Of a stretch of 38,150 bases of DNA, positions 1 to 38,150 are shown one piece after another (position 1 is the stretch's first letter; each line of letters starts with the position of its first letter). Source of the stretch: Psammoneis japonica. Its lineage: Eukaryota. Made by a program: the position numbers and the translations under genes. The stretch lies in assembly GCA_008632985.1 (NCBI GenBank), contig QPGO01000001.1, forward strand, positions 426,600-464,749, in the 5' to 3' direction. The notes under the pieces are model-generated. The model saw only the letters and a list, made by a program, of their open reading frames with translations. It was not told the DNA's origin and did no database searches.

Positions 1-745
1 ACTTCAGTGGGAACTGCATTTGGCTCTTGTGCTTCTCTACAAAGTCATGCACATCGTCCACAATTTCTTTGTCCATCATGTCTGCATCCTGGGTGGCAGT
101 CACACAAGCCAATTTACTTGCACACTCCATGCGAGATTTAAGCAAGCCCAGCAGTTAACTCGCCAAGGCTTTGTTCTTGTTTGCCAGCACTGTCAGCAGC
201 TGTTCCAGCTCATTCACGGGCTTTCTCAAAGTGTTGCCGGCAATGCTGTCTGCTCTGGCGACTTGCTCATCACTCAACTTTTCCCATTCAACACGCTTCT
301 TCCGTTGACTGTCACGAGAGTGCTGAAATTTGTAAAGGCATTTCTTCTTAATGCCTTGCGACATGGGTGAGAGCAGATCCTCATCTCCATCACCACTGGA
401 AGCATTTCTCTTTAGCAGGATGTGCAGATGGATTGGTTTGTTGCTCTTTTCCTCCTTTGCCCTTCTTTTTCTTCTCCCTTTCTTTCCTTTTTTTCATTGC
501 TTTGTCGAGTGCATTCTTGAGCTTTTTCTTGTCCTTCTCACTCACACTGCAATGGACTGCAGGAGAGACTGCTTCACTGAGTCGAAAAATCTGAGAAGAA
601 TTGACTTCTTCATTGCTTTTTCGGTCGAAAGAGCATGACAACAACATTGGCGCACGAGTGTTTTGATGGTGTTTTTGCTCGGGTTCATCCTCTTGCTCTT
701 CCTTGTCTTGATTGAAGACCAGTTCCACATCTTCTTCTTCTTCAT
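1..745 (-). pseudogene. Unidentified degenerate Lys/Glu-rich coding relic abutting the broken copia RT
   Basis: Minus-strand ORF pieces 390-728 and 155-364 read like a charged protein. No recognisable motif. TpA-depleted like its neighbours. Confidence 0.25.
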
Positions 746-749
746 CATC

Positions 750-1480
750 AGCATGTTCATGCCGAGACAGTCGTCTAGAGTGCCTTGAGCATCAATGTCA
801 AAATTCGCGTCTCCAATGTCTTGCATTGCTTTGTCAACAGCAGACTTGTCAAGGGATGCAAAGATGCCATCGTCCACATGATGAACATAAAATGATGTTG
901 TCGCGAAAATGCAGACACTCATCAACCGCTGAATGAATGAAGCCAATTTGCAACAATCCATCACGCAAGTGCTCCTGCCATGCTCTCCCTGCCTGCTTCT
1001 GACCACATGAATTCTTTGGCAATTTCAGAACATGAGTCTTGCCATTGCCACATTTTGTTTCAATTCCAGCAGGTGACTCCACATGCACATCACATTCGAC
1101 ATCAGCGTGCGGGTGTGCCAGAACGAAGTGAACCTGTCGGGTGTGCCATTTGTTGAGCATGGACATGATCAGCAGAAGCCGGACAGCAAACCAGAAGACA
1201 ACCGAGGAGCAAGTCTGAAAGCAGTTGACCGCATGCTCTTGTTTTCCACCGTGCACGTTGAGTCTGGACTTCCACTCATGGACCATTTGTGTTTTGACAT
1301 CTCTTTTCCTTTTCACAGACCACACAGAAGGGAGAATGTCAGCATCAGCAGGTGCATCCTCTCTTGGAATAAGTGCCCAATGTCTCTTTTCAATGTGGTC
1401 ATTTGCTTCCTTGACACAAGCTTTGATGAACTCGTCTCAGTCCGGTTCACGCATGACCTGGTCAAAATGCCATTGCATCG
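750..1480 (-). pseudogene. Copia reverse transcriptase (RVT_2-type) relic
   Basis: WSVKRKR..WKSRLNVHGGKQ, RQVHFVLAHPHA, KLPKNSCGQKQAGRAW (consensus KNLYGxKQAGRxW), HVDDGI (consensus YVDD). Confidence 0.93.
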
Positions 1481-1964
1481 GGGTCCGAGCTTGCAAAAAA
1501 AGAGACAGGTGAGTCCATGTGTCCTGCAACTTGTAATCATCTTCATGCATGGCGTCACAACAAGCCTCTGCCTCAGCATCATAGGATGCAACACCTTGAG
1601 CCCGTTGTGGTTGGCTCTCGCGCATCGTCCTTTTGGTCGGGCGTCATTGTCGTCGGACCTGCTGGTGCTGGGCTGACCCATGGCATGCTGTGGCTCAGGT
1701 GCAGCATCGGGATCATTGGAGGCGTGTGCAGGACCTCATCATCCGGCTGAGCATTGTCAAATGAGTCATCAGCAGTCAATGTGTCACCAGGATGCAGCAG
1801 CTGAGGCGGAATTTCAGGACCCGGTTCAGTTGGTTCCGTTGCGGCAGGAGCAGGGTCCCTCACATCATCTGACCTCAAAAAGATGTTGAGTGTCCTTCCT
1901 GACTTCAGTTGTTTGAAACCCGTTGTGCCTTGCCATTGTGAGAATGTTGAAGGATTTCCAGCAG

Positions 1965-2890
1965 ATGGATGAACGGTCTCAAAGAAGTTGTCAAATTGTG
2001 CGTGAAACTGCGGTGACACAAGCCCAGTTTGCAAATTTAAAACCAAGGGCTGAACCTGCATGTCTTGTTGAGGGTCCGAGATTGATTCACAACCTTGTTC
2101 TTGTTTCCCATTTGGGTGTTCTACCTCCTCCTTGCAATCGGTTTTGCAGGGCATAGACTGGGCATCCGAAAGCATGATGTTGCTTGAGGTTGGGTTGAAC
2201 CTTGACGGAAGAGAAGCGCTCCAAGGGAGAGGAACCATCCTCATGATTCAACAAGTCTGAGAGCACTCGGCCAGTTTAGCTCACCTTGCTTTTGCGTGCA
2301 AGGGTTGCTTCTGAGCCTGTTCTTGGAGGTCCCTTGTTCTCTTTTTCGTGATGCCATTTTGGAAATGAGCGTTTGCGCCACAGTGTGAGATAGTTTGCTG
2401 TTGTTTCTCCACGTCTTGGATGAATGCATCATCAGCAAACCTCCCATTGTCGGCATGGCAGTGTCAAATGCGAACGTGCATCCGTCATGCGAATGCCTCA
2501 AAAGCATGCTTGGCTTGAAGAGTCTCCGCCGAGGCAAGTCCCCTCTGCAAACATGCGCATCCCAAGCCACTGCAGTGATCAACGAACATTGTTGCGGCTC
2601 TGGTCTCTGTACGGCAGGCCTCCCTTTGAGCTGTGGGATCAGTCCAGGAGCAGGACTCTCAAGTTGATCGACGGATGCGGCTTCTCCAGGTGAAGTTGCC
2701 AAGTGGATTCGTCTGTTCCACTTGGACTTTGAGCACCACGGTCGTTTTGTCATGGCACCGCATGGGCAGCCGGCGCACTTTGGATTCTGCACCTTTGTAA
2801 GGCATCTCAGAAGGATGCCTGGGGCAGCCAACAGCTTTGTCATTTTGAATGACATGTGGCCCAGGTGACAGTGCCAACGCAACAGTTTGC
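1965..2890 (-). pseudogene. Copia GAG-pre-integrase plus integrase relic
   Basis: LLRWHCHLGHMSF..KCAGC (HHCC zinc motif), PGEAASVDQLES (first catalytic D), C-terminal LVLNLQTGLVSPQFHAQFDNFFETV. Confidence 0.88.
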
Positions 2891-3470
2891 CCTGATCATC
2901 AGTGGCAGCAAGGGCATCATCATTTGGCATCATGTTGATGGGTTCCGGCAAGTCCTGCTGCACCTCTGGTGTCGTGAAATCCTTGAGGTTTTCCTCATCT
3001 GAGTCTGAACGACTTGTTCCATTTGTTGGCTAAAACAAAACGGGAACATCCGCATCAGCAGCATTGCGTGCGTCTTGCGTCTCGGAAGGACGTGTCTCGG
3101 ATGGACTTCTGAAGACGTCTTTTTCAGTTGCAGCCTCCGCATCATTTGCAATGCTTTCATCGTCTGGTGGCATGATGTGAGCTTGACAGGCCACGTGTTC
3201 AATAGATTGGACATCGGTTTTGGTCTCGACAGCGGCTGCAAAGGTCCAGTGTTTGTTGGAGCTGGGTGCGGAACGCATCTTGGCAACGTCAGAGTTGGCG
3301 GACCATGGAATCAGATGATTGCACTTCCTCTGGTCCCACAGCAGTAAAAGTCCGTCATCCCCAGTCCAGGATGCAGCGCCGTGAGGCTCTGGCTTGTGAT
3401 CATTGGCTTGTTGACTCCATTGTTGAGGGCAAAGCAGGCAATGAGGTGAGTCGGGAACGTGTGGTGCATC

Positions 3471-3680
3471 TCAAATTTTGATGCTGTGCACCTGTCCCAA
3501 GTCGTCCTCAATCTGCCACTGCACCGCACCCTCTCCCTTGACACGCAGATGACCCTTGACACCAAGTGCCACCTTGTTGGACTTCCGAAGAGGGCCAACA
3601 AAGTGACTTGCATTGTTTGACATGGTGCAAGAAGAGTGGCTGTCAACTCCAATCACGAAAGAGTCCGAATCGCAAGTGGG
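3471..3680 (-). pseudogene. Copia aspartic protease relic
   Basis: DSDSFVIGVDSHSSCTMSN..GEGAVQWQIEDDLGQVHSIKI resembles the protease region of diatom copia elements. Confidence 0.75.
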
Positions 3681-4063
3681 ATCCGTTCGCTGGGACGGAA
3701 TGGAGCAGTGGAGTTGCAAGCCGTGCATGTGTGGCAGCTCTTGAAATCATGTCGAGCTCTCTTGGTGGCCACTCTGGAGCGGTGACCTGGCCTCGTCGAC
3801 GTGAGACACCGTGCACAGCACCTTGTCGTTGGCCATCGCTGGCAAGTCTTGACTTGTCTTGTGCCAGTTCAGCCAGGACATGTGAGATGACCCACTCACC
3901 TGGCGTCATTGCGGCACGGGACCATTGCTTGCACTGTTTTGCAGGAATGGACAGCATCGTGAATGGCAGCATGATCCAGATTAGTGTGGCGCATTTCATG
4001 ATGCCAGCGACTGCCATGAGGAAGGCTGATGCAGCAAAAGCGCTTCCAGGAGCAGCAGCAGCA

Positions 4064-4815
4064 TCAGAGTCGACCTGTGATCAGGCACTCTTGGTCCACT
4101 TCATTGAGAATGGTGGAGACAGCACTGGCAAAGGACACCTTCTTGTCACGTGTGTCATCAGATTGGGCAAGCTGTTGTTTGTGAAGCCTGCAGCCTTGAT
4201 TGCCCGGATCGTCAGGTGAGTGCATGACCCAGGCGGTGTGACATGGGCACCAGTGGCAGTCGCGATTGTTGACTCGCTTGTGATGATGCTGATGCCCATT
4301 TGCCATCTTCTTAGGAGTGTCCTCCTTGGGCGGAACTTTCTTCCAGGCTTCGTCAGCCTTTTGCTTCTGACATGGGGCAGTCTTGGTCTTCCTTGACTTG
4401 GTGCTTCTTTCCGTTCCTGAGCCAGCCTCAGCCTTCAGAGCCTTGGACAGCTGAAGGTTCTGGTCCTTGATGGAGCCCACCTTGGATGTGAGCACAATGA
4501 TTTGCTCTTCAGCCGGCGACAATGCTCCCCATTTCTTCTCACGTTTGAGGTCAGTGCGCTTGTTCAATGCCAATGTCATGATCTGAGTCGGCGTGAAGTC
4601 CTCACCGTCGTCGCACCTGTCCTTGTGCAGCATGATGCACTTGAGGAAGACTTCGTCAGCAGCAGCGGTGCATCCCTTGAACAATTCACAATGAGATCGT
4701 CGCACTGCTCTCCTCTAGCTAGGAGTCCGTCAACGTCAAGCTTGGTGCACTTGTTAGCTCTTCGATGTCCGAGTTGACGGCCACCATGCATGCATCCAGG
4801 CTTGACAAGCTCAGA
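4064..4815 (-). pseudogene. Copia gag C-terminal relic
   Basis: LSSLDACMVAVNSDIEE, GLLARGEQCDDLIVN, LFKGC, WKKVPPK..CHWCPCHTAWVMH (Cys/His knuckle). Located upstream of the protease. Confidence 0.75.
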
Positions 4816-5299
4816 AAAGGGCAATGGTTTTGACATTTTTTTTTCAAGTGGCACCAAGTGCACAATTTTTTTGATGCTCGAGACATTGTTGTTGCATTTC
4901 ATTTTTTGTTGTTTTCATTGATCTCAACAACAGCAGCAGTGTGGTGGTTGAAGACAGTCAACAAGGCATTGCAAACACTGCTGTCCTTGCAGCAGCAGCC
5001 CACTGCTGTGAAAAAGAGCCATCTCCTTGAGTTGTTGGTTGGTTGTGCAACAGAAAAATCTCAACAATGTGTGTCATTTTGTACATTCCAAACAATGACC
5101 AAGGATGGAAGGGGCCATTCTCATCTTGACAAGCCACTCTTGCATCCACCATCCTGACACCAACCAGAGCACTGGCAGTTGTTGCATCAAAGCACCACCA
5201 ACAACCATCAATGCACATCAAAACCCATCATCAAGTTGGCTGGAATGGAAGAAAAATGACAAGGAAGAAAAATGACAGGTTTGTCAGCCATTTGTCTTG

Positions 5300-6640
5300 C
5301 TGTTTTGCACACATGCAGCATCCTGCAAGAGGCTGCACACAGCCAAATTACAGTGCCAGGGGTCGCTGACCATTCAAACACCCCATGAAGCTTCTGGTGC
5401 TAACCCCACATGTTGCCAAATTGATGGCAGGCAGGCAGTGCTAGAAGTCATCAGTCCTGCCTGCATCAAACACTTGGGACTCACCCAGGTTGTGCGGTGC
5501 TTCACTGCAGGAAAAAATGCCAGCCAATGCAATGATGGCATGCCAGAGCAAATGACATTTGCTGGCAAGAACATTTGCCACATGCAAGCAGTGTTCACAC
5601 TTGTTCTGTGTGTGGATGGCACACTTTGTGCATTGCATGCAGCCAACTCAACAAAATGGCACCAAAATGACAAACAATCCCCTGGGCATGTGGCGCTCAC
5701 TGTGAAGTCATGCAGCACCTTGCGTCTTTCAATGGGCCCATTGGACAAGAAGCATCGCAAAAAAAAAGCCAGATGACAGCCAAAGCAGCCACAGTGGTGT
5801 TTGATGCAGTCTGCAATGCCAACAACAGCAATGAAAGCATTTGCTGCAATCTGCGGCACAGCATGAGAGACCAAGCACTCTGCAACAATGGCCAGCCTCA
5901 CATTTTGCCCACTGCTTGCTGATGATGGGGGACACCTGTTTTTTCCACTGCCATGTCCACATTTCCTCCTCCAATGGTGTCAAATGAAGCCAAAATGCTT
6001 TTTTGGTCATTTGTGTCAACAAAGCAACAAGAAGGGTCCAAAGTTGATGCTGCTGCACAGGCTGAGCTTTGCCTGTTTTGTTTCACATCTTTGAAGCACA
6101 CACATCAATGAACATTTGACTGTGAGCTGCTCAAGAGAAAGCTGAGCTGTGGCTGATCTTGCAGGGTGCCATTTGGAGATGAAAGCTGTGCCCAATCTGT
6201 GCACCCACCCTCAGCTTCAAACACATGGGTGTGTGCATGATGTCTTTCTGTGTTTGCCCATGCCAACACAAAGCAGGTGGAAATGGCATGCCAAAAGTTT
6301 GGACCACATGCTTCATGTGAGAAGGGGTGCTCTTTTGCATGCTGGATGCACACACCCATGTCTCAAATTTTGGGATGTTGGGCACACACCCAAGTCTGGA
6401 GCAAATTTGTGGTGGCTTGGCCATTGCCAAAGATGTTGGCAAGATGGCACCAGGCATGTTGCTTGTGGCAAGAGAGATTGTGCCAAGATTCTCCAGATCA
6501 CAAAAAAGAGAAAGTCTGGTGTGTGTTCTTGTCACAAAGCACAGCCAGCACGTGCAAGCTGCACAGAGCATTTGTTGCTCACTGTTGTGCCAGCAAGCAG
6601 CCCCCACTTTGAGTCAAGAGATGAGTTGGAGACATGACAC
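5300..6640 (+). pseudogene. Heavily eroded unidentified coding relic, probably TE-derived
   Basis: Semi-continuous frames (5297-5776, and 5888-6637 with stops) in DNA nearly devoid of both TpA and CpG. No motif recognised. Confidence 0.2.
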
Positions 6641-7179
6641 AGCAAAAAGTGGTTTTTGGGCATGAAAGGCTTTTGGCGGCCCAGCGCTTTCCAGATCTCT
6701 GGATTTTAACTTCTTGGGGGGGGTTTGGCACGCTGATGTTGGCTTTTTCAAAGTGACAGCAAAGGTCAAAGCACCAAAGTGGTGGATTGTCTGGAGAATG
6801 TGAGCAGCAAATCTGCTGTGGTGAGATGAAAAAGTGGCAAGGAAATGGCAGCCATTGGTTGATGGTGCACGTGTGTGTGCCAACAGCTCTGGGATGAGCT
6901 GCAAGCTGGCAGCTGCCGGCAGCATCTGCTCTGCTCTAGCTAGAGTGGAGCCAGAGCAGCAGCCAGTGGCAGAGAGCAGCTGCACCAGCAGCTAGAGAGC
7001 AGAGCAGCGGCTGCTGCTGAGCTGCTGTGATGATGTTGCAAGCTCGCTGAAGTGCCTTCTGACCCCAGCAGATTTCTGCGTCAAGCGCCAGAGACAGCCA
7101 TGTAAAATGCACACATCATTGGACGATGATGCAGTCCCAACTTGAAACGGGAGTCTGTTCTCCATTTCACATCTTTTGC

Positions 7180-8415
7180 CATGACAGGATTTGAACAAGA
7201 ATGACTCACCCTTGTTCTTTGCTCAACATTTGAGCATTGACAATGTCAGTGGACATGGAGAGTAGAACTCTGGTCCAGACCCAGTGCAACACCTTGCTGC
7301 TGTCTAAACAGCAGATGAGTGTCCCGCCGAGATGCTGTCACAGGTGCCCCTGTGAACAATGGGGACATGTGTTCCAGGGTCAGGAACAGTTTTTGGTCTG
7401 GCCAGGTGGAAGTGCCTGGTCTTGTGCCTGTCACAGCCGCCCAGATGCACAGACACCTAAACGGCTAAGACACTTGGTTGGTGTGACTCGAACCCAAGCC
7501 CATTTGGAATTCGCACCAGAATGTGCCATTGTTGCCAATGGATTTCCATTCCCCGACCAAGGAATGAAGTGATCCATCAGCATTTACACTGCCAATTTCA
7601 CCACTGTTGCTGTTCACTGTTTCTGCATTCATTGTGAAGGTTGACTGCCGAAACTTGATTCTTCTTCGAATTCTGTCAGAGTGTTGTTTTTTGTCTCTTG
7701 CCATTTTGCGTCAAATTCTGTCAGATTGACAGTCTTGATGACCCTCGTAAATCCATGAGCTGTCATCAAGCGACAAAAACATCCTTTGCAAGGACACAAG
7801 TGCGTGAATGCCAAGCAGTGACTAGAGTCGATTCTGGGGTCAGTTTTTAACAGCAAAGCCAGAAGCCACTTAGAGAGAGATGGATGAATGGCACTCACAG
7901 TGTCAGGTTGATGGGGAGTGACAGAATTTGAAGAAGAATCGAGTTTCGGCAGTCAACCTTCACAATGAGTGCGGAAGCAGTGAATGCAACAGTGACAAAA
8001 TTGGTGTTGCAAATGCCAACAGATCACTTCATTCCTCGGTCAGGAATGGAAATCCATTGGCAACAATGGCACATGCTGGCGCGAATTCCAAATGGGCTTG
8101 GGCTCGAGTCACACCAACCAAGTGTCTTGGCCGTTTGGGTGTCTGTGCATCTGGGTGGCTGTGACAGGCATGAGACCAGGCACTTCCACCTGGCCAGACC
8201 AAAAACTGTTCCTGACCCTGGAACACATGTCCCCATTGTTCACAGGGGCACCTGTGACGGCATCTCGGCGGGATGCTCATCTGCTGTTTAGACAGCAGTG
8301 AGGTGTTGCACTGGGTCTGGGCTGGAGCTCCACTTGCTGTGTCCACTGACTTTGTCAATGCTCGAGTGTGGAGCAAAGAACAAGGGTGAGCAATTCTTGT
8401 TCAAATCCTGTCATG
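7180..8415. repeat. Long inverted repeat: arms 7180-7678 and 7919-8415, spacer about 240 bp
   Basis: catgacaggatttgaacaagaat at 7180 is the reverse complement of the sequence ending at 8415. The arms align throughout, and the ORF track shows the same peptides on opposite strands. Confidence 0.95.
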
Positions 8416-8877
8416 CCATGCCACGCACATGCACAACGCTTCACCAAAAAATGAGGCAACAATGGCAGTGATCCATTTGGATTTTTTTTTTCATGTGGCA
8501 CTTCCTCCCTTGAGACAATGTACGATCAAATCCCTGTTTGGTCCAGAAGGCTGTGACCACAAGTGGGTCAAGCTTCACAATCACGATGCAGCTGTGGTTT
8601 GTTTGAGGACCAAAGAGGAAGTTTGGCTCACATCACGCATCACGTGGCTGCAACTGCTTCTTCCTTTGAAGGTGATCATGACACAGAAGGTGTCACCCCT
8701 CCCACGTCCAAAGCTTCCATTGGACCCTTTTTCTGCAGTGCAATTGACCGCATGGGAAGTGACCAATGTCAACCACCCGTGTGCACAAGAAAGCAACCAG
8801 CAAAGATTGCTGCACATTTGAGAGAAAGAGAGCTTGAACAACAAATGGAATGAACAAAGACAATTGTTTGTGGGTGT

Positions 8878-9140
8878 GTGAGAGCATCTGTTGTCATGAA
8901 TTGTTTCTTTTCTGTTGAAGCCACAATGTCTTGCACTCACAAATCTTTTCCATTGCTGCCATTTGCTCCCAAGTGCCAATGTTGCCATGCACGCATCATG
9001 AGACACCCTGCCTTGCAACATGGGAGAAGACGAGTGAGAGCATCCATTGTCAGGATTTTTTTCTCTTCCATTGAAGTTGTCACAACTTGCACTCACAAAT
9101 TGTTTCTGTTGCAACCATCTGCTCCCAAGTGATGCCATGG
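8878..9140. repeat. Two diverged direct copies of a roughly 105-bp unit (starts 8878 and 9035)
   Basis: Both copies run gtgagagcatc..ttgtca..ttgaag..cttgcactcacaaat..tgctcccaagtg..tgccatg. Confidence 0.8.
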
Positions 9141-10400: not shown

Positions 10401-10621
10401 GTCAGTCTGAAGGTGGGTCAAAGCAATCACAATTTTTTATGCCAGGGCTGCACAATTCTTCTTTGAGCCACAAGTGCGCGCAGTGAGCTTGCACATTGTG
10501 TGCGTTTTGAGTTTGCGTTGTTGCCCACTTCCATCGCACAAACAATGCACCGTGCTTTCATCTTGGCCATTGTTGTCATGTTCCAGCACAACACACACAA
10601 ACACATTCCAGTCCCGTTGCA

Positions 10622-11230
10622 ATGAAAAAGAGTTCCCAATTTTCTTTTAAATGTGGTGTGCCATCCAACAACATCAAGGTTGTCTTGTTGGGTGAATCCG
10701 GAGTGGGCAAGAGCAGTTTGGCTCTGGTGTTTTGTACGAATGAATTTTGTCCGCACTCGGAATCCGCCATTGGTGCAAGTTTCATGTCCAAGACGCTGGA
10801 CAATGGTGTGTCCTTTAACATTTGGGATGCGGTGGGACAAGAAAAGTGCCATTCGTTGGCACCCAAGTGTTGTCTTGGTGCCGCCGCGGCCGCACTCGTC
10901 TTTGATTTGCTCTCCTTAACATCATTTGAATGCATCAAGAATTGAGCAAAGGAACCACAATCCAACGGACCTCCCGACATTGTCTTGTGCATGTGTGGGA
11001 ACAAATTGGATTTGGCAGAACATCAGCAAGCATCCTCGGAGGATGCACAAGCCTGTGCCAACGAGGTTGGAGCAGCCTTTTACACAGAAACGTCCGCACG
11101 AGACCATGTCAATGTGAATGAATTGTTTGAACAAATGTCAAAACATGTGCCAGTCACATCGAGTCAGCAGCAAGAGGATGGATTGGATTTGAGATGTCAA
11201 GAAGGAGGCACGAGAAGTGGGTGTTGCTGA
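10622..11230 (+). pseudogene. Intronless Rab5/Rab22-like small GTPase pseudogene
   Basis: GESGVGKSS (G1), IGASF, WDAVGQE (G3), GNKLD (G4), ETSAR (G5) and a C-terminal CC prenylation motif, all in one frame. TGA at 10943-10945 replaces the conserved Trp, and conserved Tyr residues are Cys/His. Confidence 0.93.
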
Positions 11231-12119: not shown

Positions 12120-12217
12120 AGTGACGAGTGTGATCATTGCCTTTCCATCGCATCTTGTGGCAACAGCAGCTGAGTTGCTTGCTGCGGGGGAGGGCAACAT
12201 TTTGGAGAGGCACAGAG

Positions 12218-26133: not shown

Positions 26134-26220
26134 CTTCACGGTGATCGCACTGAAAAAACAACTGTTTTTGCTGAGCAACTTCTTGAAATTTGTTGAGTTG
26201 AAGTGTCAGCTTAAATTAAA

Positions 26221-29200: not shown

Positions 29201-31950
29201 CTGTGTCGTCCAACAGCACTGGAGAATCTCAGTCCATTTGCGTTTTTTGGTGAACACGAAGTTCTTCGCAACACAAGGAAAAACGAACACGGCATGATGA
29301 TGTTCGACAACAGAGCGCACAGGCACCTGTCTTGCAATTCAATGAAGAACAAGTTTCTTCAAGGTGTCAGACAGCGACAGCAACCGCGATTGTTGAAAGT
29401 GCTTCAGTGTGATTTTCCTGATGCAGCCAAGTTTGGCAGTTGCCTCATGGATCCGCAGCAACCAACAACACCAGACAAAGAATTGCACTGCAAGTTGGCA
29501 TTGGCCTTGTTTGCGCCTTACAGAACAATGACAGAACTCAAACCAACAACCCATGCATGCCTGCGTGAATTCCAACTCTCCGCAGCAGCCGGTGTCATCA
29601 CAGAGGAAAACTTGAACTTCTTGCAGAACCTGCAGGATGCCAAGTCCAACTGCCTTTGTCTCAAAAGCACATCTGACGATCTGCAAAGATGGACGGAGCA
29701 ATTTAGACCTGCTGACGTTGCGTTTGACTGTTGCGAAAGTGACGAGGAAGAAGGTCTTTCAGGCGCCGTTCAGGGTCAACTGCTGGATGCACTCTTGGAA
29801 GAAATGGCAGAGCAGCCAGAAGACGATGACATTGGGTTGAGCAACCAAGCAGTCATTCCTGCGCATTTGAGCGGCAAACGTGCAAGACAGAAAGGTTCAC
29901 ACATGGGTGGTTGCAAATGCTTGGCAGACATGCACACTGACCCACCAAACGAGGAAAGCCAGGTCAATGAACGACAACTTTTGAGAATCTAGAGGGCGGC
30001 ATGACACCGACGAGGAAGACCAGAATGAAGGAGTGCAACAACACATCCACAGCAGACCACTGTCAAGAGACGACATTGTTCAAGTGACACTGACTAGAGC
30101 ACAAAGAACAAGAAGGTTGTTTGAGGATGTGACAGGTTTGGAAGAACACGTCGATGTGCGTCAAGCAAACGGATCTGCAGCAAGTGTCGTAGACTGGGCT
30201 GGGAAAGCAAGACTGGATGGGCAACAGCAGCGTGCCTTTGAAATTCTAGCAGGAACCTTTGTGCTCACTTGCTGCCAAGACGCTCTTCAAGACGAGACGT
30301 CACGCAATGGACTTAATGGGAGAAATGGCAGACACGAATTCGCAACAAACCTTTGCCGATTGAAGAAACTCGTGGAAGTGCAAAGACGCAGAACGTTGCA
30401 ACTTGTGTGTTTTTTACATGGTGCAGGTGGAAGAGGCAAATCAACCACAATGGACCTCGTCGTGGAACACGGAAGAGAGTGTTGCTCGCTTGTTGAGCAG
30501 CCGTTCACAACAAGCACAATCAGAATGACTGCACTGACTGGAGTGGCTGCCACTGTTCTCAAAGGGGACACAATCCACCGAGTTGCACACCTCATGAGAA
30601 GAAAGCAAATGACCGAAGAGCAAATTGAAGCATGGTCAGACACAAGACTTTTGGTGGCAGACGAGATTTCTTTTGCAAGCAAGAGAGAGCTAGAAAAACT
30701 CCATGAGAATTTAACAGCATTGAAGAGCGAACCAAGCAAGCCGTGCGGTGGCACAAACATTGTTTTCGCAGGTGACCTCAGGCAACTAGAACCAGTCAGA
30801 AAAGGAGTGAAGCCACTGTGCAAAGATGCATGTCCCGAGTTTCACGAGTGGATCAACTGCTGCATAGAACTTCGTGGTGCACACAGGTTTAAAGACGATC
30901 CATCATGGGGAAAACTGCTTAAAAGAGATTCCGCACTGGCGAGATTGCAGTTGACGACACAGAGCACATCAACGAATGAGCAGTTCAGAATGAAGATGAT
31001 CTGCCCAGTGACCTCCGCCATGCTGCGTGCGCAAATAAGGGGCAGAGATGCAATTGACACTGGCCTGTTCGAAAAAAGAGCAGGAAACACTGCACAGAAG
31101 AGATGGAGACGTCCTTGACTCAATGTTGATTTTCAGTGACGACTTGCAGGTGCAGAATGGCACGAGACTCTGCCAACCATTTCCGGTTTGCAACAGCTTC
31201 TGGAACAACTGTGGTGAAGGAGACGTTGTCATGCAATCAGGAAGAATGGATCCAGTCTTACGAATTTACAGAAGATGCAGAGTCATGACACCTTTCAACG
31301 AAAATGTGGCAAACGGTCAAGCAAACGGAACGCAAGCCACTGTTGACAAGGTCGTTCTCAAACCAGGACAGGAACCAAGACTGGCAACTTTAGACAACAA
31401 CATTGGCATTCCTGCTGCACTTGCTGGTCAGGTAGACCACGTTGCATTGGAACACTGCAACAAAAGCATCGACCCCGCGAAGTTTTTAGTTGAGCCAAAA
31501 ACAAATGCTTTCAGGGCTTGCATTGCCAAGCCCAGCCCAATTTTAGAAGAAGGCGACAAACAAAGGCACACTTTCCAACTGAAGGCAACCCAGCTGCCGT
31601 TTGTCATCAACAATGCCACTGCAGGGCACAAACTGTAAGGGAGTGGAGTCCCGCAGTTGTTTGCACACTCTTGGAGCTACACTCAGAATTGGGTGCATGT
31701 TGTGCTCTCCAGAGTAAAGACCAGAGAAGGGCTGTTCATGCGAAAGCCACCAAGCAAGGACCTGCGAAAACACAAGGTCCCAGAAGGCTACGAAGCCTTG
31801 ACAAGACTCATGAAGGAGAGAAGCGCCACGCATTTTTCTCAGCAACAGCACGCAGAAATGTCAATGCAGCACGCAAACACCAGATTGGGATGCTCAACCA
31901 CTGCACAACTGTTTGGCGACCCCAACCGCAAAAATGCGGAGATTTCGTAA
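26221..31950 (+). pseudogene. Helitron Rep (HUH endonuclease)-Pif1 helicase fusion, with frameshifts and stops
   Basis: N-terminal CxxC and ANN..G.PP.EL..LTEVE; Rep motifs FLTVSPDD, VEEQGRPTAHGHMQIW (HUH) and CNTN..QCTIEHILK (YxxxYxxK); Pif1 motifs GAGGRGKST, TGVAA..GDTIH, DEIS, AGDLRQLEPV, ANGT, ATAGHKL*G, HVVLSRV. Confidence 0.93.
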
Positions 31951-33422: not shown

Positions 33423-34658
33423 CAGAGCTCGCACGTAGAATTCTACGGGGCAAATGTCACAAAAAGTCCCACCTGGGACTGGAACCCATCAGCAGAGGTG
33501 TGCAACTGGAAACCGCCCATGCCATGTTGAATGCACTGTCGTTGGGTCATGAGAAATTAACAACGACTTTGCAATTAGATCACATGTTTTGCAGGGTGGT
33601 GATGATGACAACAGATGATGATGCCAAAGGTGGTGAGGAGGTGGTGCAACAACTCGATGCCATTGATTGCTGCCGCTTCATTTGGATTTTGGGTGGGGCC
33701 GACTCAGCATCGTGGAGACAGCAGCAGCATCAAAGATGGTTTGCAGGTCTGGTGGGAAACAAAAAACCAGAAATGCTTCCCCAAGTGTGTGCAAATGTTG
33801 CAACTGCTCAGAGCACTGCACAAAACTGCTTTCACCCTGGATTTCGAAGTTCCCACAATGTTGGGGCAAGTGTGGCAGAAAAGTGCAAACTTGAACAGAC
33901 TTCATTGTAGAGGTGAAAAGCTCCTTCACAATGTCCCTCTCTTGCAACTCATCTGCAGTGTGTTGTCATTCCAAGTGCAGCAAACGCACAGGCGTTGAGA
34001 CCCTTCGAGCAAGTGTTTGTTTTGGGAGCGGCAACTTCGCGTTTGCCTGGGCATGAGCGGGCTCTGGTCAGAATCCTGTCCTCATTGGGGGGCAGAATGC
34101 ACACCACTGGAGCTCTTCAACCAAAGCACTCAGTGCTGCTGTGAAGCATGGGAGAATGATGACAGATCAAAGAGCCGCACAGCACTTGGACTGTCCAGGG
34201 GGAACTTGGGGTGGAACATCCAGAGAGAGAGAGAGGGGGGGGGGGGGGGTGATTGGAGGAGGCAAGCTGTCCCAAGCTGGTCGTGAGGTGATGCAGACAG
34301 GGTGCTCCTGCTGTGGGATTGGAGCAGTGGCATCGCCCAACAAATGGGGCATGATGGCCTGATTTCGACCAACCTTCCAGGCACGTGGTGTGAAATGAGT
34401 GTGAACATCCACTCGGGTGCTTCATGTGCTCTGCACTGCCACCAACCATCAACGAAAGGCAAATCACACATGTTGTTGAATGGAATGAAATGGGCTTGAC
34501 AAAGATCTGGAGATGGGAGAATGAAGCTTTCCCAGCACTTGCAAAGTCGCATGTGTTGTGCGAGTCGTCAGCCCAAGTCCAAGGTTTCTGGACGCGTTCC
34601 AGATGCAGGTGGGAATCTGTGTGACATTGGGCCCGTAGAATTCTACGTGCGAGCTCCG
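33423..34658. mobile_element. Non-autonomous 1.24-kb TIR element with a probable TA target duplication
   Basis: gagctcgcacgtagaattctacggg.c.aatgtcaca at 33425 and its reverse complement ending at 34656 (37 bp, 2 mismatches; imperfect match extends to about 70 bp). The right flank is CG|TA and the left flank is TG|CA, its eroded mirror. Confidence 0.7.
34340..34470 (-). pseudogene. RING-H2 (C3H2C3) zinc-finger fragment
   Basis: CVIC..CSHSFHTTCLEGW then, after a 1-nt frameshift, RPSCPIC. Confidence 0.85.
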
Positions 34659-34805: not shown

Positions 34806-35009
34806 ACATCATTGTTTCTATAAATTCATTGTATAAAACGTCTGGGGGCTTCGCAAAACAGTGAGTCTGGACAATTTTTTTTTAAATGTCACACGTAGAA
34901 ATGTACGTGCGAAACATACGACGGATGATAAAAATTATTTGTGTCACACGTCAGTGCTACGTACGAGCTCCCACCTGGGGCTGGAACGCGTCTCTGGAAG
35001 ATCAAATCC

Positions 35010-35290
35010 TTGGCATTTGTTTTGACAGCAGAGATGTGCCACAAGCAGCTGTTGAAACCAGGCTTGATGGGCTTTTCAAAGCAATTGCAGAGCAGACAGC
35101 AACAACTTTTGTCTTCAAGTTGATCAAAGCTGTGAAATCCAAGGTTGCAAACAACCACTTTGCCACTCACAGAGCAAGAGGAATTGGTGCAGACACCCTC
35201 CAGTGACAGACCTTTTCTCGCTTGATGCCATGCTGGAGCGCTCTCACTCCATTCAACTTTTTGACAGCGCTGGTTTGGGACGTGTTCCAG
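35010..35290 (-). pseudogene. Cys-rich putative zinc-binding domain of unknown function
   Basis: WSESAPAWHQARKGLSLEGVCTNSSC..VVCNLGF..FD..CLLC..PIKPGFNSCLW within ORF 34889-35503. Resembles, from memory, an uncharacterised eukaryotic domain often next to ubiquitin-like domains. Confidence 0.5.
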
Positions 35291-35608
35291 TGCCAGGTGA
35301 CGCGCAAAACGACAATTTCCACAATTTACACAAGCTTGGTGTTTGGAGTTTTTAATCATAAAATTTGGCATCAAATGTTGCCAATGCATCATCCATTCTC
35401 GTGGGTGATTATTTCCTGTGTGCGTGAAGGAAGCTAAAACCGTTGAGGGTTTCATCTGAGTGGCTGAAGAGACGTGGCGTGAGGGAGGGACAAACAAGAG
35501 CAAGAAGCAGCGAGTGCCGAGTGCCTTTCATTGCACCACAAATGAGTTGCAGTTGCTGCTAGACGAACACAACGTTGAAAAGCAACTTGATCATTCGTGA
35601 ACGCCAAA

Positions 35609-38150
35609 ATGTGCGGTAAAAAGAAACGAACAAAAATCGGGAGGAAGTGCAAGGCTGGGGCTGGACGCAATGCCCCAACGAAAGGAAAGCGCAAAATTCG
35701 CCAGAAAGGTGGATGGGCATCTCCATCTAAAAAAGCTCGCTCAGATGACAGTTTGGATCACGATGGTCAAGAAAGCCTCATTTCTGACAGTGTTGGAGCA
35801 TCTTCTGAGGATGTGGTGGGCTTCGTGATGGACCATTTTGAAGTGGGCCATCGAGGGGACGATTCGAGTGGAGCAGCAGTGAGTGGCAAAGCTTTTGATG
35901 CTTTTGAACCTGGAGCTGACGACACGAATGGAGGATGCGTTGGAGTGAGGGCGGTTGATGATGTTTGCACTTTGGAAGCTGAAGCCAACGATGCAACAAG
36001 TGGAAACGTTGCAGAGGGTTTTTTGGAGAGAGTGTCGCTGCTGGCAATGGCATGGAATCTGATGGTGTCATTGCGGGCAGAGGATGCAGCAACAGTGCCA
36101 CTGTTGCAGCTGACAATGCAAGTAGAGGAGATGTTGGAGTGATGGCAGATGCAACAAGTGGAGTTGTGGCAGAAGGCATTGGAGAGACATTCGTTGGAGA
36201 GAGTGTTGCTGCTGGCAACAGCACAGAATCTGATGGTGTCATCGGGGGCAGAGGACGCAGCAACAGCACCGCCATTGCAGCTGACAATGCAAGCAGAGGA
36301 GATGTTGGAGTGACGGCAGATGCAACAAGCAGCAATGTTGGAGAAGGCGTCAGAGAGAGCGTCGTTGGAGACAGTGTCGCTGCTGGCAGTGGTGTAGAAT
36401 CGAAAGGTGTCATTTCAGGCAGAGGACGCAGCAATGCTGCCACTGTTGCAGCTGACAATGGAAGTGGAGGAGATGTTGGAGTGATGGCAGATGCAACAAG
36501 TGGAAATGTGGTGGAAGGCGTTGGAGAGACATTCGTTGGAGAGAGTGTCGCTGCTGGCAATGGCACAGAATCTGATGGTGTCATTGCAGGCAGAGGACGC
36601 AGCAATGGTGCCACTGTTGCAGCTGACAATGCAAGTAGAGGAGATGTTGGAGTGATGGCAGATGCAACAAGCAGCAATGTCAGAGAAGGCGTCAGAGAGA
36701 GCGTCGTTGGAGACAGTGTCGCTGCTGGCAGTGGTGCAGAATCGAAAGGCATCATTTCGGGCAGAGGACGCAGCAATGCCACCACTGTTGCAGCTGACAA
36801 TGGAAGCAGAGGAGATGTTGGAGTGATGGCAGATGCAACAAGTGGAAATGTGGTAGAAGGCGTTGGAGAGACATTCGTTGGAGAGAGTGTCGCTGCTGGC
36901 AACAGTGTAGAATCTGATGGTGTCATCACAGGCAGAGGACGCAGCAATGGCACCACTGTTGCAGCTGACAATGCAAGCAGAGGAGATGTTGGAGTGACGG
37001 CAGATGCAACAAGCAGTGATGTTAGAGAAGGCGTCAGAGAGAGCATCGTTGGAGATGGTGTCGCTGCTGGCAGCATTGTAGAATCGGAAGGCATCATTTC
37101 GGGCAGAGGATGCAGCAACAGTGCCACTGTTGCAGCTGACAATGCAAGCAGAGGAGATGTTGGAGTGATGGCAGATGCAACAAGTGGAAATGTGGCAGAA
37201 GGCATTGGAGAGACATTCGTTGGAGAGAGTGTCGCTGCTGGCAACAGCACAGAATCTGATGGTGTCATTGGGGGCAGAGGACGCAGCAACAGTGCCGCCA
37301 TTGCAGCTGACAATGCAAGCAGAGGAGATGTTGGAGTGACGGCAGATGCAACAAGCAGCAATGTCAGAGAGAGCGTCGTTGGAGACAGTGTCGCTGCTGG
37401 CAGCAGTGTAGAATCGGAAGGTGTCATTTCGGGCAGAGGACGCAGCTCGAGTGCAAATGCTGTGTCTCGCAGCAAATGCGAATTGTTGGATGCTGCCCCG
37501 ACAATCAAAATCAATGAAGATGCATTTCTGGCAGGGCTGGGTGGTCGTCCCAGAAGCAAGCAAGCGGCCGAAAAGGCCAGACAACGTGTCCCAAAGAGAT
37601 CAGTTGACACTGTGAAGAAGTTGAAGACAGAGGAGCAATGTGCTTTGACGACTCGAGATTTCAACAACTGCAAAGACATGCTGCAATGCTCAAAAGCGGC
37701 AGGGTTCTTTCCAACAAAAGAAACGGTTGCTGCAAATCATGTTGCATCCCAGCAGCGTCGCCTGCCAACTGAAGCGGCCAATGCTAAAAACACAAAGGGA
37801 CGCCCCGACGATGACAGGAGCAACTTTGTCGGAGTCATGTGCACGGCGTCTGCAGACTCTCCAGACAAACCACCACCTCAGAAGAATGCAACAATGACAG
37901 CCTTTGGCGGTGCCATGAGTGATTCTACAACACGATGGAGAATGAAAGAGGCGGAAGCCAAGCGAAAGGCAATCATTGCTGGCGAGAAAGGGGTGAAGTG
38001 GAGTGTTGGTCGGAAAAGAAAGAAATGCCAGAAGGTGTCAGATGAAGTGAGGGAGAAGCTGGCACAATGGATGCGGGATCACCCACATGTGGTCGACTCA
38101 CCGATGGCCAACGACACCTTGTTGATCAAGAATCCGGAAACAGGCGAAAA
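35609..38150 (+). pseudogene. Long, probably transposon-encoded ORF with an internal 57-aa repeat; runs off the window end
   Basis: Basic N-terminus from ATG 35609, frameshift near 36020, then an apparently open frame through the repeats to WMRDHPHVVDSPMANDTLLIKNPETGE at the edge. Family not identified. Confidence 0.5.
35990..37446 (+). repeat. Coding minisatellite: about 8.5 copies of a 171-bp unit with alternating A/B variants (342-bp higher-order period)
   Basis: The anchor gatgcaacaag occurs at 35990, 36148, 36319, 36490, 36661, 36832, 37003, 37174 and 37345. The first interval is 13 bp short. Confidence 0.97.

What the first reader, a model, noticed from the sequence alone, without database searches (positions are those of the whole stretch)
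1..38150. Repeat-targeted TpA->TpG/CpA hypermutation: a candidate RIP-like genome defence running opposite to fungal RIP
Seen: outside about 16.7-19.5 kb and two small patches near 33.2-33.4 and 34.7-34.95 kb, TA dinucleotides are nearly absent. Conserved Tyr codons are Cys or His in unrelated sequences: copia RT (HVDD for YVDD, KNSCG for KNLYG), Tc1 transposase (CSPDL for YSPDL), Pif1 (HVVLSRV for YVxLSR), Helitron Rep and a Rab (EKCHSLAPKCC for ExYHSLAPMYY). Other TA-predicted changes also occur (Leu->Ser/Pro, Val->Ala, and Thr->Ala across codon boundaries). Established: fungal RIP and 5mC decay are C->T; RIP creates TpA and neither removes it. Inference: a strand-symmetric A->G (equivalently T->C) process at TpA hits repeated or silenced DNA after integration. 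It hits DNA transposons, a Helitron and a host-gene copy on both strands, which argues against RNA editing or RT error. Candidate chemistries are DNA adenine deamination or thymine oxidation with mispairing. I do not know of a description of this but could not search the literature.
Basis: partly seen in the sequence, partly recalled or inferred. Interest (0 to 1): 0.96.

Follow-up and report, generated by a model that had tools for sequence, protein, structure and literature searches.

The report
TpA-to-TpG/CpA hypermutation of diatom repeats
Dead transposons, tandem repeats and a copied host gene in this diatom-like genome piece have had almost every TA step turned into TG or CA, the same odd mutation process that was measured in 2026 in an unrelated alga, so it is real but no longer undescribed.

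Summary
The window has 401 TA against about 2385 expected (o/e 0.17), with TG and CA at 1.5-1.6. Conserved Tyr codons are kept at 0 of 16 sites in a copia element and 3 of 18 in a Helitron; 28 of the 34 are now His or Cys. In the neighbouring phosphofructokinase gene, 7 of 13 are kept and none is His or Cys. Seventy-nine related copia loci from metagenomes have TA o/e 0.34-0.93, and 78 of them keep their Tyr. Inverted-repeat arms and tandem copies differ mostly by TA/CG versus TG/CA, so the changes arose in place. Contigs built from a public read run reproduce the TA-poor sequence.

Three points are new here. The target is 5'-TAY-3' (T > C >> A, G after the A). The edges are sharp and one matches the edge of a repeat. 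CpG decay runs alongside as a separate process.

The host looks like a diatom. The process is already in print: a 2026 bioRxiv preprint measured TpA-only A:T>G:C hypermutation in integrated viruses of Bigelowiella natans. I file this as a new member of that kind, in a second lineage and near saturation.

The chemistry is unresolved: adenine deamination or thymine oxidation. One hit element carries a degenerate TET/JBP-like oxygenase gene.

The parts
1..15999 (.). Left TA-depleted block. TA o/e is 0.06-0.09 and CpG o/e 0.10-0.55.
548..3859 (-). Degenerate Ty1/copia element (gag-pre-integrase, integrase, RVT_2). Has HVDD in place of YVDD.
   Evidence: Pfam. tblastn of 93 homologues covers 548-3859. 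Conserved Tyr kept 0 of 16.
7177..8418 (.). Inverted repeat with 376-nt arms, 92% complementary. 23 of its 29 mismatches are transitions and 17 lie in YpR<->YpR dinucleotide pairs.
10511..11227 (+). Rab5-like (Ras family) gene copy, dead. Three Tyr are now Cys and DTAGQ reads DAVGQ.
   Evidence: Pfam Ras 5.3e-19 and 6.1e-12. PDB 2efc_B 2.7e-22 with alignment.
11494..16504 (.). TIR-bounded DNA transposon. Arms are 11494-12102 and 15892-16504. A Tc1-like CSPDL motif lies at 13235-13249(+). The arm next to the PFK gene keeps more TA (12 v 4) and CG (43 v 25).
16000..19499 (-). Spared island. Holds the phosphofructokinase gene (coding matches 17334-18886) and its flanks. TA o/e 0.50, CpG 1.05.
19500..25000 (.). 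High-copy element. TA-poor (o/e 0.17) but CpG-normal (0.94). Its left edge coincides with the drop in TA count.
   Evidence: Word depth rises from 97 to 3070 at about 19.34 kb. TA per 100 nt falls from 5 to 0 at 19,500. Composition.
20934..22448 (-). Degenerate ORF of 504 aa with an HRD...H...SSR motif. Likely a TET/JBP-type 2OG-Fe(II) oxygenase domain.
   Evidence: The only homologue is a Seminavis robusta protein, P0376: 30% identity, 1e-30. ESM Atlas gives Tet_JBP clusters, feature score 0.96 and structure TM 0.72. There is no Pfam hit and no PDB hit.
25514..26126 (.). Tandem repeat of 248/129 nt. 20 of the 24 mismatches between its copies are transitions.
26218..31896 (+). Degenerate Helitron (DUF6570, Helitron_like_N, PIF1 helicase), frameshifted.
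   Evidence: Pfam. tblastn of 150 homologues. Conserved Tyr kept 3 of 18. Word depth 2400-5300.
33500..34599 (.). Stretch with 3 TA (none from 34000 to 34599), flanked by 72-nt inverted repeats (33419-33490 and 34591-34662). It sits between two TA-normal patches and holds a RING-like ORF, 34117-34677(-).
36023..37446 (.). Tandem array of 171 nt. Sixteen dinucleotide columns vary only among TA/CG/TG/CA: 7 are TG/CA only, 2 are TA+TG+CA, and 7 include CG.

Best explanation
This is a piece of a diatom-like nuclear genome. Integrated mobile and repeated DNA here has undergone, in place, a strand-symmetric transition process that turns TpA into TpG or CpA. The process strongly prefers 5'-TAY-3' (equivalently 5'-RTA-3'). 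It has destroyed about 89% of TA steps, and with them Tyr codons, while sparing an adjacent expressed-type gene.

It is the same kind of process that mutation-accumulation lines showed directly in integrated viruses of Bigelowiella natans. Ordinary CpG>TpG/CpA decay of methylated repeats runs beside it and feeds the same TG/CA sink.

Shown: direction, TpA and TAY specificity, both strands, occurrence after insertion, sharp edges, and agreement with reads.

Inferred: it is enzyme-driven and directed at silent or foreign chromatin rather than at homology as such. For the chemical step I put about 0.45 on deamination of adenine to hypoxanthine in DNA by a deaminase-fold enzyme (ADAT2/TadA-like). 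After that, replication fixes G:C.
For: Composition. TA o/e is 0.11 over 33,350 nt against 0.51 in 4,800 spared nt. No shuffle comes near.

Polarity from homologues.
- copia: 409 conserved positions, 121 replaced. TA>TG 19, TA>CA 16, other A:T>G:C 4.
- Helitron: 525 conserved positions, 101 replaced. TA>CA 17, TA>TG 12, other A:T>G:C 3.
- Conserved Tyr are now His or Cys at 28 of 34 positions, against 0 of 13 in PFK.

The signature is not native to the family. Seventy-nine related copia loci have TA o/e 0.34-0.93. The Tyr>His/Cys fraction is 16 of 20 in the window, 6 of 26 in one locus, and 0.09 or less in the other 78.

The changes arose in situ. The TIR arms differ at 66 sites; 58 are transitions and 53 lie in YpR<->YpR pairs. 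The distal arm has TG/CA where the gene-proximal arm has TA 9 times (reverse 1) or CG 18 times (reverse 1). The 171-nt array has TA/TG/CA and TG/CA dimorphic columns.

Context. Survival of NTAN, measured against 299 kb of related copia loci, runs ATAT 0, ATAC 0, ATAG 0.04, ATAA 0.07, GTAC 0.08, CTAC 0.18, GTAA 0.33, CTAA 0.43, TTAA 0.46, CTAG 0.64. Fitted hazards by the base 3' of the A are T 2.86, C 1.48, G 0.28, A 0.21. The order holds in two separate halves of the window.

Edges. TA per 100 nt goes from 5 to 0 at 19,500, which is where word depth jumps from 97 to 3070.

Reads. 1000 of 3852 laid contigs are at least 99% alike. Contigs of 473 and 644 nt in the TA-poor 14.6-15.9 kb stretch differ at 3 and 2 letters.

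Precedent. In B. natans, 230 of 231 de novo mutations in two viral insertions are A>G or T>C, all at TpA, and 124 TpA-poor clusters were found genome-wide (Results read in full).
Against: - No genome is held. I could not compare repeats with single-copy DNA genome-wide, search for a deaminase, or show that the process is still active.
- The taxon is inferred only from best named protein hits: Thalassiosira, Cyclotella, Seminavis.
- The read run may be the one the assembly came from, so it excludes assembly or polishing error but not a chemistry shared by all reads.
- The context hazards use related elements as a stand-in for the unknown ancestors.
- Natural ADAT2/3 substrates, as I recall them, have G, A or C after the edited A, not U. 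The T > C preference is therefore not predicted by a tRNA-type deaminase.
- 59 multi-step and 57 transversion replacements at conserved positions show that much ordinary decay is mixed in.
Confidence: 0.8

Rival explanations
1. The phenomenon is the same, but the chemistry acts on the thymine. A TET/JBP-type dioxygenase oxidises T in 5'-RTA-3' to 5hmU or 5fU in silenced DNA. The oxidised base, or its repair, then mispairs with G and gives T>C.
For: - Sequence alone cannot tell A>G in TAY from T>C in RTA.
- A high-copy element inside the depleted block carries a TET/JBP-like ORF, 20934-22448(-). So the family is present in this genome and was once abundant.
- Dinoflagellate TET/JBP homologues make 5hmU that is enriched on transposons (PMC11572971, passages).
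- Recalled, not tested: base J sits on both T of the TpA step of trypanosome telomere repeats, and 5-formyluracil mispairs with G.
Against: - The ORF here is degenerate and is itself a target.
- The family assignment rests on ESM Atlas likeness only. Pfam found nothing, PDB sequence search found nothing relevant, and the AlphaFold model failed (pLDDT 29.6).
- As I recall, 5hmU itself pairs as T.
- TE-borne TET/JBP genes are usually read as counter-silencing tools. The retained CpG of this element (o/e 0.94) fits that reading better.
Confidence: 0.25
2. Error-prone repair synthesis. Patches opened at T:G or U:G mismatches in methylated repeats are refilled by a Pol eta-like polymerase, which misinserts G opposite T at TA steps, as in the A:T phase of antibody hypermutation.
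For: - TA loss and CpG loss go together across bins (Spearman 0.62).
- Recalled: Pol eta errors peak at WA motifs, with A>G the commonest.
Against: - The 19.5-25 kb element lost TA (o/e 0.17) without losing CpG (0.94).
- Among 34 conserved Tyr, only 2 show an A>T change (Phe) and none an A>C change, against 28 transitions. In B. natans 230 of 231 mutations are transitions.
- A:T>G:C outside TpA is rare (7 against 64), so AA is not a target.
Confidence: 0.07
3. Editing before integration. RNA, cDNA or single-stranded transposition intermediates are edited (ADAR- or APOBEC-style) and the copies arrive already mutated. This would also give sharp edges.
For: The depletion has sharp edges, and one coincides with the edge of a repeat.
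Against: - Both strands are hit equally in coding orientation (31 against 33).
- Cut-and-paste and rolling-circle elements, satellites and a gene copy are all hit.
- The two arms of one inserted element, and neighbouring tandem units, differ from each other at these sites.
- The 3' preference T > C >> G is the reverse of the ADAR preference (recalled).
- B. natans shows the change in resident single-copy DNA.
Confidence: 0.04
4. Artefact or native composition. Either a modified base is misread in sequencing, or the elements were always TA-poor under selection.
For: The only read run found may be the source of the assembly itself.
Against: - Read-derived contigs agree with the window.
- Catalytic Tyr are replaced, which kills the enzymes.
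- Relatives have TA o/e 0.34-0.93 and keep their Tyr.
- Copies within the window disagree with each other at these sites.
- The gene next door is normal.
Confidence: 0.03

Closest known systems
TpA hypermutation of integrated viral DNA in Bigelowiella natans (bioRxiv 10.64898/2026.01.13.699255; abstract, Results, Discussion and passages read)
   Same: - A>G and T>C only at TpA, on both strands.
- Confined to blocks of foreign DNA.
- TpA depletion paired with CpA+TpG excess.
- TpA-poor coding sequences enriched in reverse transcriptase and DDE domains.
- Proposed as a genome defence.
   Different: - The host is a rhizarian, whereas this window looks stramenopile (diatom).
- There, the measured targets were a giant-virus and a virophage insertion, still at Rho(TpA) 0.45 or higher. 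Here transposons, satellites and a gene copy stand at o/e 0.06-0.18.
- The text I read reports no dependence on the 3' base.
- That study has a direct rate measurement. I have none.
Fungal repeat-induced point mutation (RIP)
   Same: Dense transitions that inactivate transposons in place and leave a dinucleotide signature and sharp blocks.
   Different: RIP is C>T (CpA>TpA in Neurospora) and creates TpA. It is homology-triggered and premeiotic (recalled). Here TpA is destroyed, A:T pairs are the target, and dependence on homology is not shown.
5-methylcytosine decay at CpG in methylated diatom repeats
   Same: It is present here as a second process. CG is replaced by TG/CA between repeat copies, and CpG o/e falls to 0.10 at 5-7 kb. 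Diatom repeats are CpG-methylated in blocks of up to 30 kb (PMC5124317, passages).
   Different: It cannot remove TpA or turn Tyr into His/Cys. One element lost TA but not CpG.
ADAR hyper-editing and APOBEC editing of retroelements
   Same: Clustered deamination-type transitions in repeats, with a 5' U/T before the edited A in the ADAR case (stated in the preprint's Discussion).
   Different: Those systems act on RNA or cDNA, on one strand per copy, and on retroelements only. ADAR prefers a 3' G (recalled). Here DNA transposons and satellites are hit, both strands are hit, and the 3' preference is T > C.
5hmU marking of transposons by TET/JBP enzymes in dinoflagellates (PMC11572971, passages)
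   Same: A thymine-directed modification of repeats in another SAR-group alga. A TET/JBP-like gene lies in this window.
   Different: It is an epigenetic mark, and the passages I read do not report it as mutagenic. No link to TpA loss is shown there or here.

Membership tests
B. natans-type TpA hypermutation | Changes are A>G / T>C transitions | tested here: met
   64 unambiguous TA>TG/CA single steps against 7 other A:T>G:C. 28 of 34 conserved Tyr became His or Cys and 2 became Phe.
B. natans-type TpA hypermutation | Restricted to TpA, on both strands | tested here: met
   TA>TG 31 against TA>CA 33 in coding orientation. TG o/e 1.57 and CA 1.63 in the depleted DNA. A further TAY preference was found.
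B. natans-type TpA hypermutation | Confined to blocks of integrated foreign or mobile DNA, with host genes spared | tested here: met
   The PFK island has TA o/e 0.50 and none of its 13 conserved Tyr became His or Cys (7 kept, 6 other residues). Edges are sharp at 19,500, 34,600 and 35,000.
B. natans-type TpA hypermutation | Elevated de novo rate in living lines | not testable with these tools
   This needs mutation-accumulation or pedigree sequencing of this organism.
Fungal RIP | C>T transitions that create TpA | tested here: not met
   TpA is removed, not created.
Fungal RIP | Triggered by sequence duplication | tested here: inconclusive
   High-copy elements are hit (depth 2400-5300). So is a stretch at about 1.5-2 times single-copy depth. 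A repeated stretch at 16.6-17.3 kb is not hit.
ADAR-type RNA hyper-editing fixed by reverse transcription | Retroelements only, one strand per copy, 3' G preferred | tested here: not met
   Helitron, TIR element and satellites are hit. Both strands are hit. The 3' order is T > C >> G, A.
CpG methylation decay | CG>TG/CA in repeats with CpG depletion | tested here: met
   CG in the proximal TIR arm faces TG/CA in the distal arm 18 times. CpG o/e is 0.10-0.55 in 1-16 kb. This is a separate, co-occurring process.
TET/JBP 2OG-Fe(II) dioxygenases (ORF 20934-22448, minus strand) | Match to Pfam Tet_JBP (PF12851) | tested here: not met
   No Pfam family at E up to 10, for the ORF or for its Seminavis homologue P0376.
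TET/JBP 2OG-Fe(II) dioxygenases (ORF 20934-22448, minus strand) | HxD...H...R metal and 2OG-binding motifs on a double-stranded beta-helix | tested here: inconclusive
   HRD (HTD in P0376) and a later His followed by SSR are visible in the alignment. ESM Atlas: 24 of 30 feature hits belong to the Tet_JBP set at score 0.96, and structure TM is 0.72 to a Tet_JBP cluster. My own model failed (pLDDT 29.6).

The most novel reading that the evidence does not exclude
TpA (TAY) hypermutation is an ancient genome defence, directed at chromatin, and shared across the SAR supergroup. It is seen running in a rhizarian and fossilised to saturation in this diatom. Its chemistry would be thymine oxidation by TET/JBP-family enzymes, the family that marks dinoflagellate transposons with 5hmU. 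Transposons that carry their own TET/JBP genes would then be part of an arms race over pyrimidine modification.
Probability: 0.15. Interest if true: 0.92.

Novelty: new member of a known kind. Interest (0 to 1): 0.72.

Why it matters
If a diatom carries the same TpA-directed mutator as a chlorarachniophyte, the process is not a curiosity of one alga. It would be a second kind of mutational genome defence in eukaryotes, running opposite to fungal RIP and to 5mC decay, in a group that fixes a large share of ocean carbon.

The near-saturated fossil record here gives two things the 231 de novo events in B. natans may not: a clear extended motif (TAY), which constrains the enzyme, and element-sharp edges, which constrain the targeting.

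There are practical consequences too.
- TA-free DNA has no TAA or TAG stops, so it yields long false ORFs. This window has 56 stop-to-stop frames of at least 150 aa, most with no family.
- It also yields Tyr-less 'proteins' that already sit in public databases (P0121, P0279, P0298, P0327, P0344).
- Repeat ages estimated from divergence will be wrong.

Tried and rejected
- Whole-genome comparison: no genome is held for this window. I ran no genome-wide TpA scan and no search for deaminase or TET/JBP genes.
- Earlier notes of this scan: nothing for this genome or for these words.
- Expression: no RNA holder was listed among the runs. Nothing is concluded from that.
- Naming the species from database records: cluster look-ups carried no names. 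I did not pursue it further.
- Structure of the TET/JBP-like protein: the AlphaFold model from a 2-row alignment was useless (pLDDT 29.6), so I ran no fold search. Pfam and PDB sequence search (best hit an unrelated designed protein, E 0.13) gave nothing.
- Using the spared island as the ancestral composition for the context analysis. It predicted a TGT excess that is not seen, because transposon coding DNA prefers TAC to TAT. I replaced it with related copia loci.
- N6-methyladenine decay at ApT: considered and dropped. A:T>G:C outside TpA is rare (7 against 64) and ApT is barely depleted (0.84 against 0.91).
- GC-biased gene conversion: rejected for the same reason.
- Searching for other hypermutated copia copies in metagenomes: 1 weak case (L044) among 79 loci. 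The peptide patterns used for the scan favour intact copies, so this does not measure how common the signature is.
- Literature: seven searches found only the B. natans preprint for TpA hypermutation and none for diatoms. Subscription journals are not covered.

Full report
**1. The observation**

The window holds 401 TA dinucleotides, o/e 0.17. TG is 1.53, CA 1.57 and CG 0.66. Two hundred mononucleotide shuffles give 2385 +/- 36 TA and never fewer than 2289. TA o/e is below 0.3 in 66 of 76 bins of 500 nt.

At 100-nt resolution the spared stretches are 16.0-19.5 kb, 20.7-21.0 kb, 32.9-33.5 kb and 34.6-35.0 kb. Those 4,800 nt hold 182 TA (o/e 0.51, CpG 1.04). The other 33,350 nt hold 219 TA (o/e 0.11, CpG 0.62, TG 1.57, CA 1.63).

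**2. What lies in the window**

Pfam and homology searches give this map:
- a degenerate Ty1/copia element at 548-3859 on the minus strand
- a Rab5-like gene copy at 10511-11227 on the plus strand
- a DNA transposon bounded by inverted repeats of about 610 nt, at 11494-16504, with a Tc1-like CSPDL motif
- a phosphofructokinase gene, coding matches 17334-18886 on the minus strand
- a high-copy element at 19.5-25 kb
- tandem repeats at 25.5-26.1 kb
- a frameshifted Helitron at 26218-31896 on the plus strand
- a 171-nt array at 36.0-37.4 kb

The best named relatives are all diatom proteins:
- PFK fragment: Thalassiosira exigua (69%) and T. oceanica (63%)
- copia RT: Cyclotella atomus and C. meneghiniana
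- an ORF in the 19.5-25 kb element: Seminavis robusta only

I therefore read the host as a diatom or a close relative. This is an inference from protein hits. No genome is held.

**3. Direction of change**

I laid homologues on the window with tblastn. I took as ancestral any residue shared by at least 60% of at least 10 homologues. Before counting I dropped the homologues that were themselves Tyr-poor: 1 of 93 for copia and 4 of 150 for the Helitron.

| Element | Conserved positions | Replaced | TA>TG | TA>CA | CpG decay | Other A:T>G:C | Other G:C>A:T | Transversion | Multi-step | Ambiguous |
|---|---|---|---|---|---|---|---|---|---|---|
| copia | 409 | 121 | 19 | 16 | 12 | 4 | 10 | 28 | 31 | 1 |
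| Helitron | 525 | 101 | 12 | 17 | 7 | 3 | 5 | 29 | 23 | 5 |

Fate of conserved Tyr:

| Sequence | Conserved Tyr | Kept | His | Cys | Other |
|---|---|---|---|---|---|
| copia | 16 | 0 | 7 | 7 | 1 Phe, 1 stop |
| Helitron | 18 | 3 | 10 | 4 | 1 Phe |
| PFK (control) | 13 | 7 | 0 | 0 | 6 |

In the Helitron, Phe, His, Cys, Trp and Gln are kept at 89-100% of their conserved positions; in the copia element the same five are kept at 75-91%. Val>Ala (GTA>GCA), Ile>Thr, Leu>Ser, and Ile/Met>Val across a codon boundary also occur, as TA loss predicts.

The Rab5-like copy reads EKCHSLAPKCC where solved Rab5/RABF2b proteins read ERYHSLAPMYY, and DAVGQ where they read DTAGQ.

A:T>G:C at TpA outnumbers A:T>G:C elsewhere 64 to 7. 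Non-TpA A/T sites are several times more numerous, so the excess per site is of the order of fifty-fold. That figure is rough because synonymous changes are invisible to this test.

**4. The signature is not native to the family**

A metagenome scan with a 30-protein copia alignment returned 79 loci. Their TA o/e runs from 0.34 to 0.93 and none is below 0.3.

The fraction of conserved Tyr read as His or Cys is 16 of 20 in the window. It is 6 of 26 in one locus (L044) and at most 0.09 in the other 78.

Caveat: the scan patterns favour intact copies. This controls for family composition. It does not measure how common the signature is in nature.

**5. The changes arose after insertion, in DNA, on both strands**

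- The two arms of the 11.5-16.5 kb element differ at 66 positions. Of these, 58 are transitions and 53 lie in pairs of YpR dinucleotides.
- The distal arm has TG or CA where the arm next to the PFK gene has TA (9 times; reverse 1) or CG (18 times; reverse 1). In 11 places one arm has TG and the other CA.
- The proximal arm keeps 12 TA and 43 CG, against 4 and 25 in the distal arm.
- The 376-nt inverted repeat at 7.2-8.4 kb and two tandem repeats behave alike.
- In the 171-nt array, 16 dinucleotide columns vary only among TA, CG, TG and CA. Seven are TG/CA only, two are TA+TG+CA, and seven include CG.
- TG/CA dimorphism needs two base changes per column. It is the mark of independent hits on one ancestral TA or CG.
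- In coding orientation TA>TG and TA>CA are equal (31 against 33).

Together these exclude editing of a single-stranded RNA or cDNA as the main source.

**6. Two processes, one sink**

CpG decay is as frequent as TA loss between repeat copies. The two are correlated across bins (Spearman 0.62). This fits old, silenced DNA losing both. Diatom repeats are CpG-methylated in blocks (PMC5124317, passages).

The processes are separable, though. The 19.5-25 kb element has TA o/e 0.17 with CpG o/e 0.94.

**7. An extended motif**

I used 299 kb of related copia loci as the compositional reference. Survival of TA by tetranucleotide is shown below, with the two strands merged.

| Context | Survival |
|---|---|
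| ATAT | 0 |
| ATAC | 0 |
| ATAG | 0.04 |
| ATAA | 0.07 |
| GTAC | 0.08 |
| CTAC | 0.18 |
| GTAA | 0.33 |
| CTAA | 0.43 |
| TTAA | 0.46 |
| CTAG | 0.64 |

An additive model gives cumulative hazards by the base 3' of the adenine: T 2.86, C 1.48, G 0.28, A 0.21. The same order appears separately in 1-16 kb plus 35-38 kb and in 19.5-33 kb.

Further support at Tyr codons:
- Tyr>His sites are preceded by a purine in 12 of 17 cases.
- The three surviving TAC codons are preceded by pyrimidines.

The target is therefore 5'-TAY-3', equivalently 5'-RTA-3'. The text of the B. natans preprint gives no context beyond TpA.

**8. Edges and copy number**

TA per 100 nt falls from 5 to 0 at 19,500. It rises from 0 to 8 at 34,600 and falls from 6 to 0 at 35,000.

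Summed word depth of read-derived contigs:

| Stretch | Word depth |
|---|---|
| PFK gene | 87-149 |
| 12-16 kb | 171-238 |
| 19.3-32 kb | 2391-5294 |

The jump from 97 to 3070 falls in the bin that starts at 19,338. That TA edge therefore matches a repeat edge to within the resolution of the bins.

Two things do not fit a pure copy-number trigger:
- the low depth of the strongly depleted 12-16 kb element
- the 16.6-17.3 kb stretch beside the gene, which is repeated (depth 745-1941) yet TA-normal

In B. natans the main target is single-copy and transcriptionally silent. I therefore favour targeting of silent or foreign chromatin over homology sensing. This is inference.

**9. Reads**

One DNA run holds 0.58 of the sampled words. 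Of its 3852 contigs laid at 80% likeness or more, 1000 are at least 99% alike. Contigs of 473 and 644 nt inside the TA-poor 14.6-15.9 kb stretch differ at 3 and 2 letters.

Differences between the window and other contigs are mostly transitions: A>G 189, T>C 204, C>T 173 and G>A 193, against 20-31 for each transversion.

Of the 40 best-supported places shown (958 more were not shown), the breakdown is:
- 10 have window TG/CA against read CG
- 5 have window TG against read TA
- 6 have window CG against read TG/CA
- 1 has window TA against read TG
- 18 are other changes

The run may be the source of the assembly. It rules out assembly or polishing error but is not independent biology.

**10. Literature**

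Seven full-text searches found one description of this process: bioRxiv 10.64898/2026.01.13.699255. I read its abstract, Results, Discussion and targeted passages.

In 15 mutation-accumulation lines of B. natans, 231 of 302 nuclear point mutations fell in two viral insertions. All but one were A>G or T>C, and all of these were at TpA. The rates were about 1e-7 to 1e-6. The authors also found 124 TpA-poor, CpA+TpG-rich clusters and an excess of RT and DDE domains among TpA-poor coding sequences. They proposed an ADAT2-like DNA adenine deaminase.

That paper does not mention diatoms, and no search found a diatom report. Subscription journals are outside the library.

**11. Mechanism**

Shown: a DNA-level, post-insertion, strand-symmetric, TAY-specific transition process with sharp regional limits.

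Inferred: it is enzymatic.

For the chemical step I give the following odds.
- About 0.45 to adenine deamination in DNA. TpA matches the U33-A34 context of tRNA adenosine deaminases (recalled). The T > C preference at the next base is not that of their natural substrates.
- About 0.25 to thymine oxidation in RTA by a TET/JBP-type enzyme.
- Less than 0.1 to Pol eta-like repair synthesis. It predicts transversions and AA hotspots, and neither is seen.

**12. A TET/JBP-like gene in a target element**

The 504-aa ORF at 20934-22448 on the minus strand lies inside the high-copy, CpG-retaining element. Evidence for a TET/JBP assignment:
- It has one homologue, a Seminavis robusta protein (30% identity, 1e-30).
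- An HRD...H...SSR pattern is visible in the alignment.
- ESM Atlas places both proteins among Tet_JBP clusters: feature score 0.96, 24 of 30 hits in that set, structure TM 0.72 for the Seminavis protein.

Evidence lacking: Pfam and PDB sequence searches found nothing, and my own model failed.

I treat this as a lead, with about 0.7 that it is a TET/JBP-type oxygenase. It may explain why this element kept its CpG, and it keeps the thymine-oxidation rival alive. Dinoflagellate TET/JBP enzymes put 5hmU on transposons (PMC11572971, passages).

**13. Verdict**

The finding is real and striking. Its core is now a known kind, described in one preprint in another lineage. I file it as a new member of that kind, in a diatom-like genome and near saturation. 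It adds a TAY motif and element-sharp edges. The RIP analogy holds for the outcome but not for the chemistry, and it is not shown for the trigger.

Noticed in passing
window 20934-22448 (-), within 19500-25000: A high-copy element carries a degenerate ORF that is probably a TET/JBP-type 2OG-Fe(II) oxygenase. Its only homologue is in Seminavis robusta. This element lost TA (o/e 0.17) but kept CpG (0.94), unlike its neighbours. No paper in the library joins JBP, diatom, transposon and dioxygenase.
   Followed up: partly
window 16550-17330: The 3' flank of the PFK gene is repeated in the reads (word depth 745-1941, many alternative joints). It has recurring ACCGGTCTGTCC-like ends, so it looks MITE-like. 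Yet it keeps a normal TA density. A repeat that escapes the process.
   Followed up: partly
window 33419-34662: A stretch with 3 TA, none of them from 34000 to 34599. It is bounded by 72-nt inverted repeats, holds a RING-finger-like ORF (34117-34677, minus strand), and sits between two TA-normal, CpG-normal patches. It looks like a hypermutated insertion in unmutated DNA.
   Followed up: partly
proteins P0121, P0279, P0298, P0327, P0344: Public databases already hold predicted copia and Helitron 'proteins' with under 1% Tyr and His/Cys at conserved Tyr positions. In P0121, 3 are kept, 11 are Cys and 4 are His. The sources are unnamed, so they may be the same organism or others.
   Followed up: partly
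L044 (metagenome locus), whole: This is the only one of 79 related copia loci with a raised Tyr>His/Cys fraction (6 of 26). Its TA o/e is 0.46. It may be a partly hypermutated copy in another organism.
   Followed up: no
window 17330-17947: A read-derived contig over the PFK gene differs from the window at 9 of 618 letters. This points to allelic or strain variation of about 1.5% in single-copy DNA.
   Followed up: no
whole window: TAA and TAG are nearly absent, so the window has 56 stop-to-stop frames of at least 150 aa on both strands. Most have no family. Gene callers will over-predict in such DNA.
   Followed up: no
window 5001-7000: A stretch with both TA (o/e 0.06) and CpG (0.10) almost gone and TG and CA near 2.0. 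It has no recognisable protein, and is probably the oldest repeat in the window.
   Followed up: no
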